A stretch of DNA of 64,000 nucleotides from Candidatus Uhrbacteria bacterium (GTDB lineage Bacteria; Patescibacteriota; Patescibacteriia; UBA9934), in assembly GCA_943359525.1 (NCBI GenBank), contig CALRHV010000001.1, positions 82,195 to 146,194 of the forward strand, in the 5' to 3' direction. Position numbers and translations under genes: made by a program. Shown here piece by piece: positions 8,623 to 53,120 of the stretch. The notes below the pieces were generated by a model. That model saw only the letters and a list, made by a program, of their open reading frames with translations. It made no database searches and was not told the DNA's origin. Position 1 is the stretch's first letter. Each line of letters begins with the position of its first letter.

Positions 8623-10707
<2,085 letters not shown>

Positions 10708-10787
10708 AATCTGATCTTAGACGGGTTGTGAGATTAGTGTGAAAGGCAGGGAGTGCGGGTGCTGCGACAGAAAACGGTACCCTCTGT

Positions 10788-11080
10788 TTTTGAGGTTTTA
10801 GAACTGGGCAATAGAATACGTTCTGATCCTAAAATCGAGAAATAATGAAATCGATTTCGGATCTTCGCGATCGCCGATCGTAGACGGCATTATCGACAAC
10901 CTCGTCGATCGTAAATATCGACCATCGGTTTCTTAACGCGAAATGTTCGCATTACCAAAGACCCTGTTTGAAATTGAACACCCCCTCACTCTCCTCGCCC
11001 AACTCAGGCTCGTCGAGCGTCGCCGATGATGTCATTATTGCCAACACCTCCGTCACAACCCTCCAAAGATCAGGTTCATT
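10788..11080. repeat. copy 1 of a conserved ~270-nt duplicated non-coding element (candidate structured RNA), abutting the stop codon of the minus-strand ORF 11076..11657
   Basis: Aligns by eye at roughly 75% identity over ~270 nt with 51866..52130. Shared blocks include GGTTTTA.AA..GGC.ATAGAA, GAAATCGATTTC, CGATCG.AGACGGC, GATCGT.AATAT, CTTAACGCGAAA..TTCGCATTA.CAAA..CCCTGTTTGAAAT.GAA..CCCCC, and CC.CCCG.CACA.CC.TCCAA.GATCAG.TTCA ending at a TCA/TGA stop. Confidence 0.7.
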
Positions 11081-11657
11081 CCATTTTAAACGCCAAACGC
11101 TCGAGTCCGAAGACCCGAGCGCTGCGTACTCGCCGACCGTTGCCGACGAGGGTGATGAAGGGGCCTATGAAGTGCTCAGCGAGAAGCTGAGTGATCTCTT
11201 CCTTGGCTCCACGAGCGATGATGTCGAAGGGTACCGTGTGGCCTTCCGCGTTGATGACGGCGAATCGACAGCCTTCGTGACCGTGTTTCACTGCGATGAA
11301 ACGAGTCAGCACGGAGCCAGGCATCACCTGATCTTCACCGAACATCACACGGCGAGCCTCCTGCGGAATCGCGCCGAGATCGATGACGCTGAACTCCTTC
11401 CACACGAACTTCGCGAGGTAGGCGTTCCGGATCATGTTCGCGAGCGCAGGCCAGCCGGGCTTCGCGGTGACAGGCATGAGCGGGTCGCCACGGAGAGCCT
11501 GGGCGAAGCTCATGTCAGGCGCTCCGGAGAAGAGGCGGCTGTGAGAGACGGGAATACCGAGGAGTCGGCAGAGGGACAGGGGAATGAAGTTCACGTTTTC
11601 ACCAGGGAACGGGTTAATCGAACACTTTATAATAGCATATTTCCCAATAAAAAGCAA
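11076..11657 (-). CDS. hypothetical protein; strand assignment uncertain because an exact antisense ORF 10968..11660 (+) also exists
   Basis: The stop codon sits at the same position of the duplicated element as the topIB stop in copy 2. The C-terminal half looks like a globular protein. The listed start overlaps the pilD terminator T-tract, so the true start is probably an internal Met, e.g. MSFAQ near 11513. Confidence 0.35.
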   Translation of the reverse strand: MLFIGKYAIIKCSINPFPGENVNFIPLSLCRLLGIPVSHSRLFSGAPDMSFAQALRGDPLMPVTAKPGWPALANMIRNAYLAKFVWKEFSVIDLGAIPQEARRVMFGEDQVMPGSVLTRFIAVKHGHEGCRFAVINAEGHTVPFDIIARGAKEEITQLLAEHFIGPFITLVGNGRRVRSARVFGLERLAFKME

Positions 11658-50544: not shown

Positions 50545-51711
50545 TTACCAACGACCAGGACCGTTCGGGTTGTATCCGTTCGCAATTTCGAGGCCATCGG
50601 GATAGCTGTCGTTGTCGGAGTCGGAGTCGAAACGGTTAGTCCAGTGGATGGTCATTTCAGCGTAGTCGGTGAGACCGTCGTGATCGGAGTCGAGCTTGCC
50701 TACGCCGTTCGGATTGTAGCCGTTGATGACTTCGGTGTAGTCCGGGTATCCATCACCGTCCGTATCGGAACTGAAGGGATTCGAGTGCCAAACTGATTCC
50801 TCGTCGGTATTCGTTAAACCATCGCCATCGTTGTCCATAGCCAACATTGCATCGCCAAGACGTTCAACAGTGGCTTCGTCGGCATTCGACATGTGGTAAT
50901 TCTTGATATCGATTGCATTGGCTGGCACTGCAATATTCACCGGTGCGTTGAAGCTATTGAAGAGCACCGAAACGCCAACCGTGGTGTACGACGTAGCGCT
51001 CTGTTGCACGTTTACGTTGAGCGTGAACATTGCAGGAAGCATACTTACCGTATCAACCCAGAATGAACCGCCAATGGTGACGTGTTCTGCAAGGTATGTA
51101 CGAGCCGCGTCTTCTTCAGACGCTGGAATTAGCTTCTTTTCAACAAGATACTCAACCAAGCGGTCCGTGTTTACCGTGTAGGCATAGCGGACGGTTGGCT
51201 TCGAATTGATGAAGCCGACGGTTTCGAGGCGATAGCTTACGACTCCGCGATTGAACATGTCTTGAAGATACGACTGCATTTGCGCAACGGCTTCTTCAGT
51301 TTCTCCCGCAGTTGGATAGTTGCTCGAACTGGCGAACTTCGTGAAATACCAAATGTTCTCGTCTTGCGAGAAGTATGCGGTGTCCTGTGTGAGGATCACC
51401 GATCCATTCGATGCGTTCGACGCACCGTTTTGATCGGTCACCGAGCCAGCAAAGTTTAACCGGCCATTCTGCGTCGTACTTGAAACACCATCAAGGTCCA
51501 CGTGAACCTTTACTGGCTGATTCATGCTAGACGTGTATGTTTCCACATCAACGTCTACGCTGAAATCCACGGACTTCGCGGTGGCGACGTTTTTGAGAAG
51601 CGTAGAAGTCGAATCGCTACTCAAGACGGTGGCGGCAGACGCAAACTGCGCCGGCAGCAATACCACACTCAAAACAAGGATCGAGACACACTTTTTGATA
51701 AGGTTTTTCAT
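50545..51711 (-). CDS. secreted protein with C-terminal thrombospondin type-3-like calcium-binding Asp repeats
   Basis: Signal peptide MKNLIKKCVSILVLSVVLLPAQFASA; C-terminal DGDGLTNTDEE, DTDGDGYPDYTE, DSDHDGLTDYAE, DSDSDNDSYPDGLE repeats. Confidence 0.7.
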   Translation of the reverse strand: MKNLIKKCVSILVLSVVLLPAQFASAATVLSSDSTSTLLKNVATAKSVDFSVDVDVETYTSSMNQPVKVHVDLDGVSSTTQNGRLNFAGSVTDQNGASNASNGSVILTQDTAYFSQDENIWYFTKFASSSNYPTAGETEEAVAQMQSYLQDMFNRGVVSYRLETVGFINSKPTVRYAYTVNTDRLVEYLVEKKLIPASEEDAARTYLAEHVTIGGSFWVDTVSMLPAMFTLNVNVQQSATSYTTVGVSVLFNSFNAPVNIAVPANAIDIKNYHMSNADEATVERLGDAMLAMDNDGDGLTNTDEESVWHSNPFSSDTDGDGYPDYTEVINGYNPNGVGKLDSDHDGLTDYAEMTIHWTNRFDSDSDNDSYPDGLEIANGYNPNGPGRW

Positions 51712-51865
51712 GGGATTTGGCCAATAAATTAACCGGATAGTATAGCAAAAAAACGGCCAAAAGTCAAGGAATTTGGCTAAAGTAAGCAAAGATGTAAACC
51801 GGTTGTGGCGAACGAACCCCCGAGCCACCAGTCCGAGGTAGTGCGCCAGAAAATGATGCCCTCGT

Positions 51866-52130
51866 ATTTTGGGGTTTTAAAAAGGGGCGATAGAACGTGT
51901 TGTGATGCTGTAATCAATGAAAAGCGAAATCGATTTCAAAATGCGTGACCGGCGATCGGAGACGGCTTCATCGCGAGCCGAACGGATCGTCAATATGAGC
52001 CAGTGCTTCCTTAACGCGAAACTTTCGCATTAGCAAAACACCCTGTTTGAAATCGAATGCCCCCGCTCTCGACAATCGTGTTTGTGATCATCACTCCCGC
52101 CACATCCATCCAAGATCAGTTCAGGCCTTC
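51866..52130. repeat. copy 2 of the conserved ~270-nt duplicated non-coding element, abutting the topIB stop codon
   Basis: See copy 1 (10788..11080). Confidence 0.7.
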
Positions 52131-53120
52131 CAACACCTTCATCAACCCAACTTCATGAACGTGGAGTAATGGATATTTCTTTCGCAATGATTCATTCGGA
52201 GCGTGCCAGGTGAGCTTTCCTTTGGCGTAGAGCGAAAGCACTTTCGGATGAATATAGGATTTTTTGCAGACGACGACGGTGTTGCCGAGGGCATCTGCAG
52301 CGCGTTGAATCGCGGCTTTCACATTCTGTTGTATTTCTCGTTTCGTCTCAACGGCCGGCCGATCCCAAAGATACGACGCGACGATGACGGTGCCGTGCCA
52401 GGTACGAAAATCTTTGGCGGTAATCTCTTCCTTCGAAATCGATTTCAGATACTCGTTGACGTCTTCCGATTGGACATCATGCGGCTTACCCTCGTGATCG
52501 AGATACTCAAAAAGCTTCTGTCCAGGAATATCGTGGCACGTTGCGACGATCTTCCGGATTCGCTCATCCTCGATGGGAAATTCGTGCGCGATCCCATCCT
52601 TCCCATCGAACGCAAGTCCCATGTACTCCCCCGTTCCCTTCACGTGCCGATTCCGCAACGTCGTCAAACCGAATGAGTGATTATCTTTCGCATACTCCTC
52701 ATTGCCGATGCGAATGAATGCCGTATCTAATAGCTCAACGATCGCTGCGAGCACCTTGTCTTTTGGTATCCCTCGAAGGCGCAAGTCGTGATCAACTCGA
52801 CGACGAATGCGGGAGAGCGATACCGCAAACTCGTTCATCCGATGAAACTTCCCCTCATTCTGCTTCGCGATCCAGTCGTGATGATAGATGTATTGTTTTC
52901 TATTTCGCGCGTCGATCGCCGTTGCTTGAATATGGCCGTTTGCAAACGGGCAGATCCACACGCTGGAATACGCCGGAGGAATGCCAAGGGAACGAATGCG
53001 AGCCAAAACGTTTGCGTTTCGGATCTTTCGTCCCTTTTCGTCGCGATATACCACACCAAACCAACCCTTTGTTCGGGTAAAGCCGGGAATCGTATCAATC
53101 ACGTATCGGAGTCGCATCAC
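52116..53120 (-). CDS. DNA topoisomerase IB (poxvirus-like bacterial TopIB)
   Basis: 334 aa; catalytic-domain layout with the active-site Tyr in KKSYIHP near the C-terminus and conserved Arg/Lys/His positions. Confidence 0.75.
   Translation of the reverse strand: MMRLRYVIDTIPGFTRTKGWFGVVYRDEKGRKIRNANVLARIRSLGIPPAYSSVWICPFANGHIQATAIDARNRKQYIYHHDWIAKQNEGKFHRMNEFAVSLSRIRRRVDHDLRLRGIPKDKVLAAIVELLDTAFIRIGNEEYAKDNHSFGLTTLRNRHVKGTGEYMGLAFDGKDGIAHEFPIEDERIRKIVATCHDIPGQKLFEYLDHEGKPHDVQSEDVNEYLKSISKEEITAKDFRTWHGTVIVASYLWDRPAVETKREIQQNVKAAIQRAADALGNTVVVCKKSYIHPKVLSLYAKGKLTWHAPNESLRKKYPLLHVHEVGLMKVLEGLN

What the first reader, a model, noticed from the sequence alone, without database searches (positions are those of the whole stretch)
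10788..11080. Duplicated ~270-nt conserved non-coding element abutting gene stop codons (candidate structured RNA)
Region 10788-11080 and region 51866-52130 align at roughly 75% identity over ~270 nt. Conserved blocks are interrupted by variable stretches in which hairpins are kept, for example GCGAA-atg-TTCGC versus GCGAA-act-TTCGC. Both copies begin exactly at the TGA of a minus-strand gene (ORF 11076..11657 and topIB) and lie in otherwise non-coding DNA. The divergence level looks like paralogous functional RNAs or 3'-UTR elements, not a recently spread MITE. Read on the minus strand, the far end starts GGGGG(T/C)(G/A)TTC.ATTTCAAACAGGG, loosely like a tmRNA 5' end, but no tRNA-like 3' end is visible.
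Basis: seen in the sequence. Interest (0 to 1): 0.7.

Follow-up and report, generated by a model that had tools for sequence, protein, structure and literature searches.

The report
Inverted-repeat-bounded non-coding repeat in Uhrbacteria
The two look-alike non-coding stretches are old copies of a small, gene-less DNA element bounded by inverted repeats. In related ultra-small groundwater bacteria it is found inserted, lost or flipped, yet its interior is kept by selection for a role still unknown.

Summary
The repeat is real. Two copies, core A at 10744-10996 and core B at 51829-52075, share about 73-78% identity and are the only copies in the window. It is not tmRNA and matches no Rfam family.

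Each copy is larger than reported. A core of about 250 nt sits inside imperfect inverted repeats, so element A spans about 10627-11083. I recovered six further copies from four related Patescibacteria (Uhrbacteria-like) genomes.

The element behaves as DNA:
- In the pilD-ligA spacer it is present forward, present reversed, replaced by a short variant, or absent with a clean empty site, depending on the relative.
- Copy B is missing after topIB in four relatives.
- B's end repeat supplies topIB's last three codons and its stop. The "abuts a stop codon" feature is therefore incidental.

The interior is nevertheless conserved:
- It is more conserved than 4-fold sites of the adjacent ligA gene.
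- Four short helices persist in all eight copies with compensatory changes.
- A block of about 60 nt stays 57-84% identical (73-84% without the most diverged copy, L048) even where the middle has randomised.

No conserved reading frame, no target-site duplication and no transposase or recombinase was found.

Best reading: an old, low-copy foldback or MITE-like element with a selected interior. A new RNA gene is not excluded.

The parts
10627..11083 (.). Element A, whole unit: outer inverted repeats plus the interior.
   Evidence: Inverted repeats I1 and I2. The full-length fold has z = -3.4. The boundaries come from the empty site in L047 and from L046.
10744..10996 (-). Core A, about 250 nt. 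'Forward' orientation is defined as the window's minus strand.
   Evidence: nhmmer profile hit, E = 5e-72. Alignments A4 and A5.
10932..10990 (.). Best-conserved block of copy A. It holds hairpin H1 (10938-10950, GCGAA-ATG-TTCGC) and hairpin H0 (10956-10970, CAAA-loop-TTTG).
   Evidence: The block is 57-84% identical across all eight copies, and 73-84% if L048 is left out. H1 is Watson-Crick in 40 of 40 cells, with two pairs that change on both sides. H0 has one compensatory C-G to U-A change.
11053..11083 (-). Terminal motif M of copy A (TGAACCTGATCTTTGGAGGGTTGTGA). It contains the TGA that ends ORF 11076..11657.
10627..10658 (+). Outer inverted copy of M on the ligA side of copy A.
   Evidence: I2, 80% complementary..
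10704..10735 (+). Inner inverted copy of M in copy A.
   Evidence: I1, 25 nt, 84% complementary..
10659..10706 (.). Separate REP-like palindrome 'Y' (GAGATCC...GTCATCCTGAGC..GCGAAGGATCTC) lodged in the right arm of A.
   Evidence: I6. Related units flank L012's core, and similar REP-like hairpins occur without a core in L046 and L043.
10985..11025 (-). Module X (CGCTCGACGAGCCTGAGTTGGGCGAGGAGAGTG), next to the core.
   Evidence: It occurs once in the window. It is also present in L017, L041, L042 and L046, and as an inverted pair in L017 and L042.
10757..10817 (+). On the plus strand of copy A: a hairpin GGGTGC...GTACCC followed by a T-run, then a sigma-70-like promoter TTGAGG-16-TAGAAT (10790-10817).
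   Evidence: The promoter was flagged. Hexamers at the same alignment columns in the other copies were read by eye. The hairpin has 7 G.U pairs on the plus strand against 1 on the minus strand.
11084..11150 (-). Terminator-like 'T-module' that precedes the element. ORF 11076..11657 reads through it. This is context, not part of the element.
   Evidence: The same module is seen in L041, L042, L043, L046, L047 and L048.
51788..52127 (.). Element B, whole unit. The left end is degenerate.
51829..52075 (-). Core B.
   Evidence: nhmmer hit, E = 1.4e-69.
52010..52069 (.). Conserved block of copy B, with H1 (52016-52028) and H0 (52034-52049).
52104..52127 (-). Terminal motif M of copy B (GGCCTGAACTGATCTTGGATGG). 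It supplies topIB's last three codons and its stop.
   Evidence: Homology with four topIB orthologues ends just before this motif.
51788..51810 (.). Degenerate inverted M copy of B (GCCACAACCGGTTTACATC on the minus strand).
   Evidence: Read from the sequence. It falls below the fuzzy-match threshold used.
51869..51896 (+). Weak promoter-like site in copy B, TTGGGG-16-TAGAAC, aligned with the site in copy A.
   Evidence: Read by eye from the alignment. It did not pass the tool's threshold.
51739..51767 (-). The next gene's own strong promoter, TTGACT-17-TATACT, lying downstream of element B. This is context.

Best explanation
A and B are two old copies of a lineage-restricted, gene-less DNA element of Uhrbacteria-type Patescibacteria.

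Anatomy. Each unit is about 450-600 bp. Imperfect inverted repeats form the arms. The arms always carry motif M, sometimes carry module X, and sometimes hold unrelated REP-like palindromes. They enclose a core of about 250 nt, so the unit is a foldback with a unique apex.

Shown:
- The unit behaves as movable or rearranging DNA. It sits at different, non-syntenic intergenic sites in different genomes.
- It is present, absent, or replaced by a short variant at one hot spot, the pilD-ligA spacer.
- It occurs there in both orientations, with the breakpoints inside M. This fits recombination between the arms.
- Where it lands against a gene end, its terminal repeat (CTGAAC TGA TC) provides the stop codon.
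- The interior is not decaying junk. It is more conserved than synonymous sites of the neighbouring ligA. Four short helices are kept by compensatory change.

Inferred:
- The conserved interior is a cis-acting module read as folded nucleic acid. The main candidate is subterminal recognition hairpins for a trans-encoded recombinase or transposase. The alternative is a short transcript from the internal plus-strand promoter-like site.
- That function would explain why one or two copies per genome persist.
For: Copies and anatomy:
- There are eight distinct copies in five genomes: window A and B, L017 (= L028), L012, L019, L041, L042 and L048.
- M lies upstream and an inverted M lies downstream in seven of the eight copies. 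B's downstream copy is degenerate. M is essentially absent elsewhere in 455 kb of held sequence.
- Full-length folds are long hairpins, with z = -3.4, -4.6 and -6.5.
- Mismatches between the arms show no RNA-type wobble excess: 17 G.U-type, 28 A.C-type and 45 other.

Behaviour at the conserved pilD-ligA spacer:
- Forward orientation in the window and in L048.
- Reversed orientation in L041 and L042.
- A short variant in L043, which keeps M and the P1 ends but has a different interior.
- No core in L046.
- A clean empty site in L047.
- Other genes in L044.
- L048 (forward) shares the derived hairpin GCAAC/GTTGC with L041 and L042 (reversed). Its conserved block is also closest to theirs. This points to flipping in place.

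Other loci:
- Copy B is absent after topIB in four relatives. topIB's last three codons and stop are element sequence.
- The site of L012's copy, the NUDIX-clpC spacer, holds no copy in the window.

Selection on the interior:
- ligA 4-fold sites are 54-57% identical between the window, L041 and L042, and 38-41% against L048.
- The cores are 72-75% and 55-58% identical for the same comparisons. The block is 57-82%.
- The four helices are 91% paired. Seven pairs change on both sides, and 0 of 500 shuffles reach that.
Against: - No target-site duplication is visible at any junction.
- Copy number is only one or two per genome, as far as I could see.
- Within-genome copies are as diverged as between-genome copies, so there is no sign of recent transposition.
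- No transposase or recombinase is present among 62 ORFs of the window. No full-length parent element was found.
- The best-conserved part is internal, not the termini. That is the reverse of a typical MITE.
- Differential loss plus local rearrangement of an old resident RNA gene could produce much of the same pattern.
- Only eight sequences were available, and the helices were chosen on those same sequences.
Confidence: 0.5

Rival explanations
1. It is an independent structured small-RNA gene family, with one or two paralogues per genome. The long flanking inverted repeats would form a processing or stability stalk, and the core would be the functional RNA. The variable location would reflect genome shuffling and loss, not mobility.
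For: - The core is conserved above the neutral yardstick.
- Four helices carry compensatory changes.
- The alignment folding energy has z of about -4 against column shuffles.
- A sigma-70-like promoter sits at the same alignment columns on the window plus strand in most copies. It is strong in L048 (TTGGCA-16-TACAAT), and fair in A and L041.
- G.U versus A.C asymmetry mildly favours that same strand.
- There is no coding signal.
Against: - Only 20 base pairs in about 230 nt are conserved across all copies. The middle has no shared structure and sits at near-random identity in L012, L019 and L048.
- The covariation term of RNAalifold is about zero or positive.
- The folding signal is equal on both strands.
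- There is no conserved terminator.
- P1 and the arms would lie outside a transcript started at the internal promoter.
- The arms show no wobble excess.
- L043 keeps the arms but not the core.
- There is no Rfam match.
Confidence: 0.25
2. It is an invertible DNA switch (an inverton). A site-specific recombinase would flip the segment between the M repeats, pointing the internal promoter toward or away from a neighbouring gene such as ligA.
For: - Both orientations occur at the same locus in related genomes, with breakpoints inside the inverted repeats.
- In the reversed state (L041, L042) the internal promoter-like site faces ligA.
Against: - Two independent assemblies of the same population show the same orientation.
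- Sequences in opposite orientations differ by 25% or more, so flips are rare evolutionary events.
- No invertase is present in the window.
- Other copies have no gene to regulate. L012's copy lies between convergent genes, and B's neighbour has its own strong promoter.
- ligA keeps its own conserved promoter region outside the element.
Confidence: 0.08
3. It is a 3'-UTR element of the upstream gene, or a tmRNA-like RNA.
For: - Both window copies start at a stop codon.
- On the minus strand the core begins GGGGG(T/C)..TTC.ATTTCAAACAGGG.
- A 5'/3' closing helix exists.
Against: - ARAGORN finds no tmRNA, and there is no Rfam hit at E<=10.
- There is no T-arm, no CCA and no G3:U70.
- Copies occur after promoters of divergent genes, between convergent genes, and reversed.
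- The stop-codon contact is explained by read-through and by insertion.
Confidence: 0.03
4. It encodes a small protein. One candidate is a 20-codon ORF on the minus strand that starts in hairpin H1. The other is a 25-32-codon ORF (MKSEIDFKNARSPI...) on the plus strand, downstream of the promoter-like site.
For: - The minus-strand ORF is 20 codons long in four of the first five copies.
- The plus-strand ORF is intact in L041, L042 and L048, with similar peptides.
Against: - Minus-strand ORF: L041 has no AUG and L042 has an early stop.
- Plus-strand ORF: A has AGA in place of ATG. B and L017 carry a frameshift and a TGA. L019 has no ATG.
- One-nucleotide indels occur between copies.
- The synonymous fraction is at most 0.32, and no frame stands out.
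- There is no third-position bias between L048 and L042, by hand count.
Confidence: 0.04

Closest known systems
Bacterial MITE-like intergenic repeats that fold back on themselves (Correia/CREE elements of Neisseria, ERIC/IRU of enterobacteria, RUP and BOX of pneumococcus). This comparison rests on my own knowledge.
   Same: - Short and gene-less, and located between genes.
- Bounded by imperfect inverted repeats, so that DNA or RNA can fold into a long hairpin.
- Present or absent at orthologous sites.
- Found in either orientation.
- Can carry promoter-like sites and alter the ends of neighbouring genes.
   Different: - Those families have tens to hundreds of similar copies, defined termini and usually a target duplication (TA for Correia).
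- Here there are one or two copies per genome, 68-80% identity, and no duplication.
- Here the interior, not the termini, is the best-conserved part.
REPINs (REP doublets mobilised by RAYT Y1 transposases). This comparison rests on my own knowledge.
   Same: - Paired inverted short repeats form a hairpin.
- They live between genes.
- They persist over long periods.
   Different: - REPINs are about 100 bp with almost no unique interior. They are numerous and co-occur with a RAYT gene.
- No Y1 transposase is present in the window.
- The one in L042 has its own unrelated flanking repeats.
Invertible promoter switches (fimS, hin, Bacteroides invertons). This comparison rests on my own knowledge.
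   Same: - A segment of a few hundred bp between inverted repeats.
- Seen in both orientations at one locus.
- A promoter-like site lies inside.
   Different: - No invertase nearby.
- No consistent regulated gene.
- Inversion is seen only between diverged genomes, not within a population.
tmRNA (Rfam RF00023 and its clan).
   Same: - A G-rich 5' end that pairs with the 3' end.
- Loose sequence likeness over about 25 nt.
   Different: - No tRNA-like domain, no tag reading frame, and no detection by ARAGORN or Infernal.

Membership tests
tmRNA | Detected by a tmRNA covariance model or by ARAGORN. | tested here: not met
   One search found only two tRNAs. Searches gave no tmRNA hit, even at E<=10.
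tmRNA | A tRNA-like domain: T-arm, acceptor stem with G3:U70, and a 3' CCA or discriminator base. | tested here: not met
   Read from the sequence. The closing helix GGGGGTA/TACCCC has no G:U at position 3. No T-arm precedes it and no CCA follows it.
Any Rfam 15 family | Reaches the family's gathering score. | tested here: not met
   One search found only two tRNAs in the whole window. Searches gave only chance snoRNA hits at E above 2.
MITE (non-autonomous transposon) | Terminal inverted repeats. | tested here: met
   An M / inverted-M pair is present in seven of the eight copies. B's downstream copy is degenerate.
MITE (non-autonomous transposon) | Target-site duplication flanking the repeats. 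| tested here: not met
   No direct repeat is visible at any of the junctions printed. The ends are degenerate, so a 2-3 bp duplication could have been missed.
MITE (non-autonomous transposon) | Small and without a coding gene. | tested here: met
   The unit is 450-600 bp. No conserved ORF was found.
MITE (non-autonomous transposon) | Presence/absence polymorphism at orthologous sites. | tested here: met
   The pilD-ligA site is empty in L047 and lacks the core in L046. The topIB site is empty in four relatives. The NUDIX-clpC site is empty in the window.
MITE (non-autonomous transposon) | Many similar copies per genome. | tested here: inconclusive
   Two copies occur in 64 kb of this genome and two in the TrH-25oct19-103 MAG. 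Whole genomes could not be scanned. The copies are only 56-75% alike.
MITE (non-autonomous transposon) | A parent autonomous element with the same termini and a transposase. | not testable with these tools
   None lies in the window or in the fetched loci.
Inverton (invertible switch) | Both orientations within one population or among near-identical strains. | tested here: not met
   The only near-identical assembly, L045, has the same orientation. Opposite orientations are seen only between genomes whose LigA proteins are 86-91% identical. Raw reads could not be examined.
Inverton (invertible switch) | A site-specific recombinase encoded nearby. | tested here: not met
   No recombinase Pfam hit among 62 ORFs of the window.
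REPIN/REP | Association with a RAYT (Y1) transposase and high copy number. | tested here: not met
   tblastn with the L042 Y1 protein finds nothing in the window or in the other loci.
Structured non-coding RNA (generic) | Base pairs maintained by compensatory substitutions. | tested here: inconclusive
   Twenty pairs in four short helices are 91% paired. Seven pairs change on both sides, and 0 of 500 shuffles reach that. There are only eight sequences, and the helices were picked on them. The rest of the core has no shared structure.
Structured non-coding RNA (generic) | A defined transcribed strand with a promoter and a terminator. | tested here: inconclusive
   A promoter-like site lies on the plus strand in most copies. 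There is no conserved terminator. Folding z-scores are equal on both strands. Expression data are not available here.

The most novel reading that the evidence does not exclude
The conserved core would be a previously undescribed functional RNA, or a single-stranded-DNA recognition module, specific to a clade of Uhrbacteria. It would be carried at the apex of a long foldback. One possibility is a small RNA released from a processing stalk. Another is a guide or recognition RNA for a trans-encoded recombinase. Either would be kept by selection at one or two copies in these very small genomes.
Probability: 0.2. Interest if true: 0.65.

Novelty: new variant of a known kind. Interest (0 to 1): 0.4.

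Why it matters
Patescibacteria have tiny, streamlined genomes, and very little is known about their non-coding DNA. A gene-less element that persists across genera at one or two copies is unexpected ballast. It flips and relocates, edits the ends of housekeeping genes such as topIB, and still keeps a selected interior.

If the interior proves to be an RNA or a recombinase recognition module, it would be a new functional class for this phylum.

If not, the finding is still practical. The element marks rearrangement hot spots and creates annotation artefacts: extended ORFs, and a spurious 323-aa antisense gene call across it.

Tried and rejected
- tmRNA or tRNA-like: ARAGORN and Rfam are negative.
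- CRISPR array next to L019's copy: these are only local palindromes.
- Minus-strand 20-codon ORF and a downstream 'KSISLFIDF' frame: broken in several copies.
- Plus-strand sORF, possibly a remnant of a parent transposase: it shows no coding signature. The peptide was too short for the protein search.
- Y1 transposase link: the L042 gene has its own unrelated repeats and no homologue in the window.
- Phage or plasmid origin: no match in phage records, plasmid records or viral contigs.
- Extra copies in the window or in the 48 loci: the profile search finds none beyond the eight. The NUDIX-clpC spacer of the window is unrelated.
- Target-site duplications: none seen.
- Strand assignment from wobble pairs: the signals are mixed and only weakly favour the plus strand.
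- Modules X and T as genome-wide repeats: each occurs once in the window.
- Literature searches for CPR repeats or RNAs found nothing describing this element.
- DGR template/variable repeats, retron, integron attC, a DnaA-box origin and a group I intron in a tRNA were considered from the sequence. I set them aside because the required features are missing: no reverse transcriptase, no adenine-specific differences, no cassette array, no TTATCCACA boxes, and no tRNA exons.

Full report

Yes. Window 10750-11120 and 51830-52170 align with 78% mean column identity. blastn gives 73% over 230 nt, E about 1e-31. The conserved 18-23-mers occur only at these two places, where shuffles expect 0.00 and 0.23 matches. 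The hairpin GCGAA-nnn-TTCGC is present in both copies.

The similarity starts further left than reported, at about 10745 and 51829. It fades after the C-run. It then returns in a terminal motif that I call M: TGAACCTGATCTTTGGAGGG at 11053-11083 and CTGAACTGATCTTGGATGG at 52104-52127.

**2. Known RNA families**

Infernal against Rfam 15 finds only two tRNAs in the window. It finds nothing on either copy even at E<=10. ARAGORN finds no tmRNA. The tmRNA resemblance is a loose likeness over about 25 nt. There is no T-arm, no CCA and no G3:U70.

**3. The element is larger than the reported span**

In copy A the right-end motif M has two inverted partners on the left, at 10633-10652 and 10707-10731. 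The whole unit therefore spans about 10627-11083. The full-length sequence folds into a long hairpin with a branched apex, z = -3.4.

**4. Relatives**

One pattern scan of species-representative genomes and one of metagenomes, checked by blastn, gave three further copies:
- one in a Patescibacteria MAG from the Hainich aquifer (L017, identical to L028);
- two in Candidatus Uhrbacteria TrH-25oct19-103 (L012 and L019).

Fetching orthologous loci through ligA and topIB homologues added copies in L041, L042 and L048. A profile search of all 455 kb held finds exactly these eight distinct copies. Phage records, plasmid records and viral contigs have none.

Seven of the eight copies have M upstream and an inverted M downstream of the core. 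B's downstream copy is degenerate. M is essentially confined to the elements.

Some copies also carry module X on one or both sides. Some hold an unrelated REP-like palindrome, Y. L017 and L012 fold into long hairpins with z = -4.6 and -6.5.

**5. DNA-level behaviour**

The gene order pilM...pilD-[spacer]-ligA-gatC-gatA is conserved in all ligA relatives. The spacer varies as follows:

| Locus | LigA aa identity to the window | State of the spacer |
|---|---|---|
| Window | - | Element present, forward |
| L048 | 86% | Element present, forward |
| L041 | 91% | Element present, reversed |
| L042 | 90% | Element present, reversed |
| L043 | 85% | M, X and the core's closing-helix ends kept around a different short interior |
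| L046 | 91% | Only a solo X and REP-like hairpins |
| L047 | 89% | Empty: the terminator-like T-module is followed about 12 nt later by the ligA promoter |
| L044 | 84% | Two sigma-like genes instead |

The sequence next to ligA is the same in both orientation states up to and including M, so the breakpoints lie in the inverted repeats.

L048 (forward) shares the derived hairpin GCAAC-TGA-GTTGC with L041 and L042 (reversed). Its conserved block is also closest to theirs. This points to flipping in place rather than separate insertions.

The only near-identical assembly, L045, has the same orientation as the window.

Other loci tell the same story:
- Copy B is absent after topIB in four relatives with 73-83% identical TopIB. 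There a convergent gene follows within about 90 nt.
- Homology with those orthologues stops just before GGC CTG AAC TGA. topIB's last three codons and its stop are therefore element sequence.
- ORF 11076..11657 ends in M only because it lost its native stop (...ITFV* in relatives). It now reads through the T-module.
- The NUDIX-clpC spacer that holds L012's copy holds no copy in the window.
- Neighbours differ at every locus: ligA, topIB, relA, nusA and clpC. Orientations also differ.

**6. Is it coding?**

No.
- The minus-strand 20-codon ORF lacks an AUG in L041 and has an early stop in L042.
- The plus-strand sORF is intact in only three of the eight copies.
- No frame stands out in a six-frame synonymous/non-synonymous count. 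The maximum synonymous fraction is 0.32.

**7. Is it folded nucleic acid?**

Partly. Four short helices hold in all eight copies:
- a closing helix P1 (GGGGGTA/TACCCC);
- a CGATCG hairpin;
- H1;
- H0.

Together they are 91% paired. Seven pairs change on both sides, and no shuffle out of 500 reaches that. H1 switches from GCGAA/TTCGC to GCAAC/GTTGC. Alignment folding energy is about 4 sd below column shuffles, but equally so on both strands.

Several points count against a complex RNA:
- The rest of the core has no shared structure.
- RNAalifold's covariation term is about zero.
- Mismatches in the arms show no wobble excess: 17 G.U-type, 28 A.C-type and 45 other.

On the window's plus strand, a hairpin plus T-run is followed by a sigma-70-like promoter at the same alignment columns in most copies. 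It reads TTGAGG-16-TAGAAT in A, TTGGGG-16-TACAAT in L041 and TTGGCA-16-TACAAT in L048, and it is weak in B, L017, L042 and L012. Wobble asymmetry mildly favours that strand. This is a lead, not proof of transcription.

**8. Selection**

- ligA 4-fold degenerate sites are 54-57% identical between the window, L041 and L042. They are 38-41% identical against L048.
- The cores are 72-75% and 55-58% identical for the same comparisons.
- The 60-nt block is 57-84% identical across all pairs. That includes copies whose middle part is at 36-55%.
- Identity among A, B, L017, L041 and L042 is star-like at 68-80%.

Either the interior is under purifying selection or the copies are younger than their hosts. 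The strong unevenness along the element favours selection on the block.

**9. Proteins nearby**

Sixty-two ORFs of at least 100 aa in the window give no transposase or recombinase hit.

**10. Verdict**

Its reading as a 3'-UTR or tmRNA-like RNA does not.

The best-supported description is an old, low-copy, inverted-repeat-bounded (foldback or MITE-like) non-coding element. It is inserted, lost and flipped as DNA, and its interior is kept by selection. It fails two defining MITE features, target duplication and high copy number, so I do not file it as a member.

A new small-RNA gene remains a live rival at about 0.25. What the interior does is inferred, not shown.

Noticed in passing
window 11084-11150; L041 700-770; L042 8860-8925 and 9400-9470; L043 9490-9580; L046, L047 and L048 after the ORF193 homologue: A conserved terminator-like 'T-module' follows pilD or the ORF193-family gene. 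It reads ..GGCAACGG(T)TCGGCGAGTACG..GC-rich hairpin..GGCGTTTGGCGTT. In L042 it occurs on both sides of that gene, as if the gene were a cassette bounded by the module. The pilD-ligA spacer is a hot spot with different cargo in each genome.
   Followed up: partly
window 11076-11657 (-): The C-terminal 22 or so codons of this ORF are read-through of the T-module into the element. Relatives end at ...ITFV*. The family has no Pfam match.
   Followed up: partly
window 10659-10706; L012 about 1060-1100 and 1440-1480; L043 9830-9900; L046 about 2330-2440: A separate REP-like palindrome family (GTCATCCTGAGC..GCGAAGGATCTC and variants) is scattered in these intergenic regions, with or without the element.
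   Followed up: no
L042 4657-5295: A Y1 (IS200-like or RAYT-like) transposase gene lies between RNase H and pilM. It is flanked by three copies of AAGCTAAGCTTTAACA. It is absent from the window and from L043 at the same position.
   Followed up: partly
L042 8798-9769 (-): The public gene call of 323 aa on this strand is probably spurious. It runs antisense to the ORF193 homologue and across half of the element.
   Followed up: no
window 10744-10996 and all other cores: GATC, mostly as CGATCG, is about five-fold enriched in the core. By my hand count there are 5 sites in about 250 nt of copy A, where about 1 is expected.
   Followed up: no
L046 1560-1630; L043 9590-9660; compare L047 1050-1090 and L048 1320-1350: Module X can sit alone inside a CCCTCC...GGAGGG hairpin just after pilD. 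Relatives have the plain hairpin, so X behaves like a small insertion module in its own right.
   Followed up: no
L019 5958-6056: Several copies of the palindrome CAACCCTTAGGGTTGAA lie downstream of the element. This is not a CRISPR array.
   Followed up: partly
window 50545-51714 (-) and 51739-51767 (-): The gene after element B encodes a secreted protein with bacterial TSP3 repeats. It has its own near-consensus promoter, TTGACT-17-TATACT.
   Followed up: no
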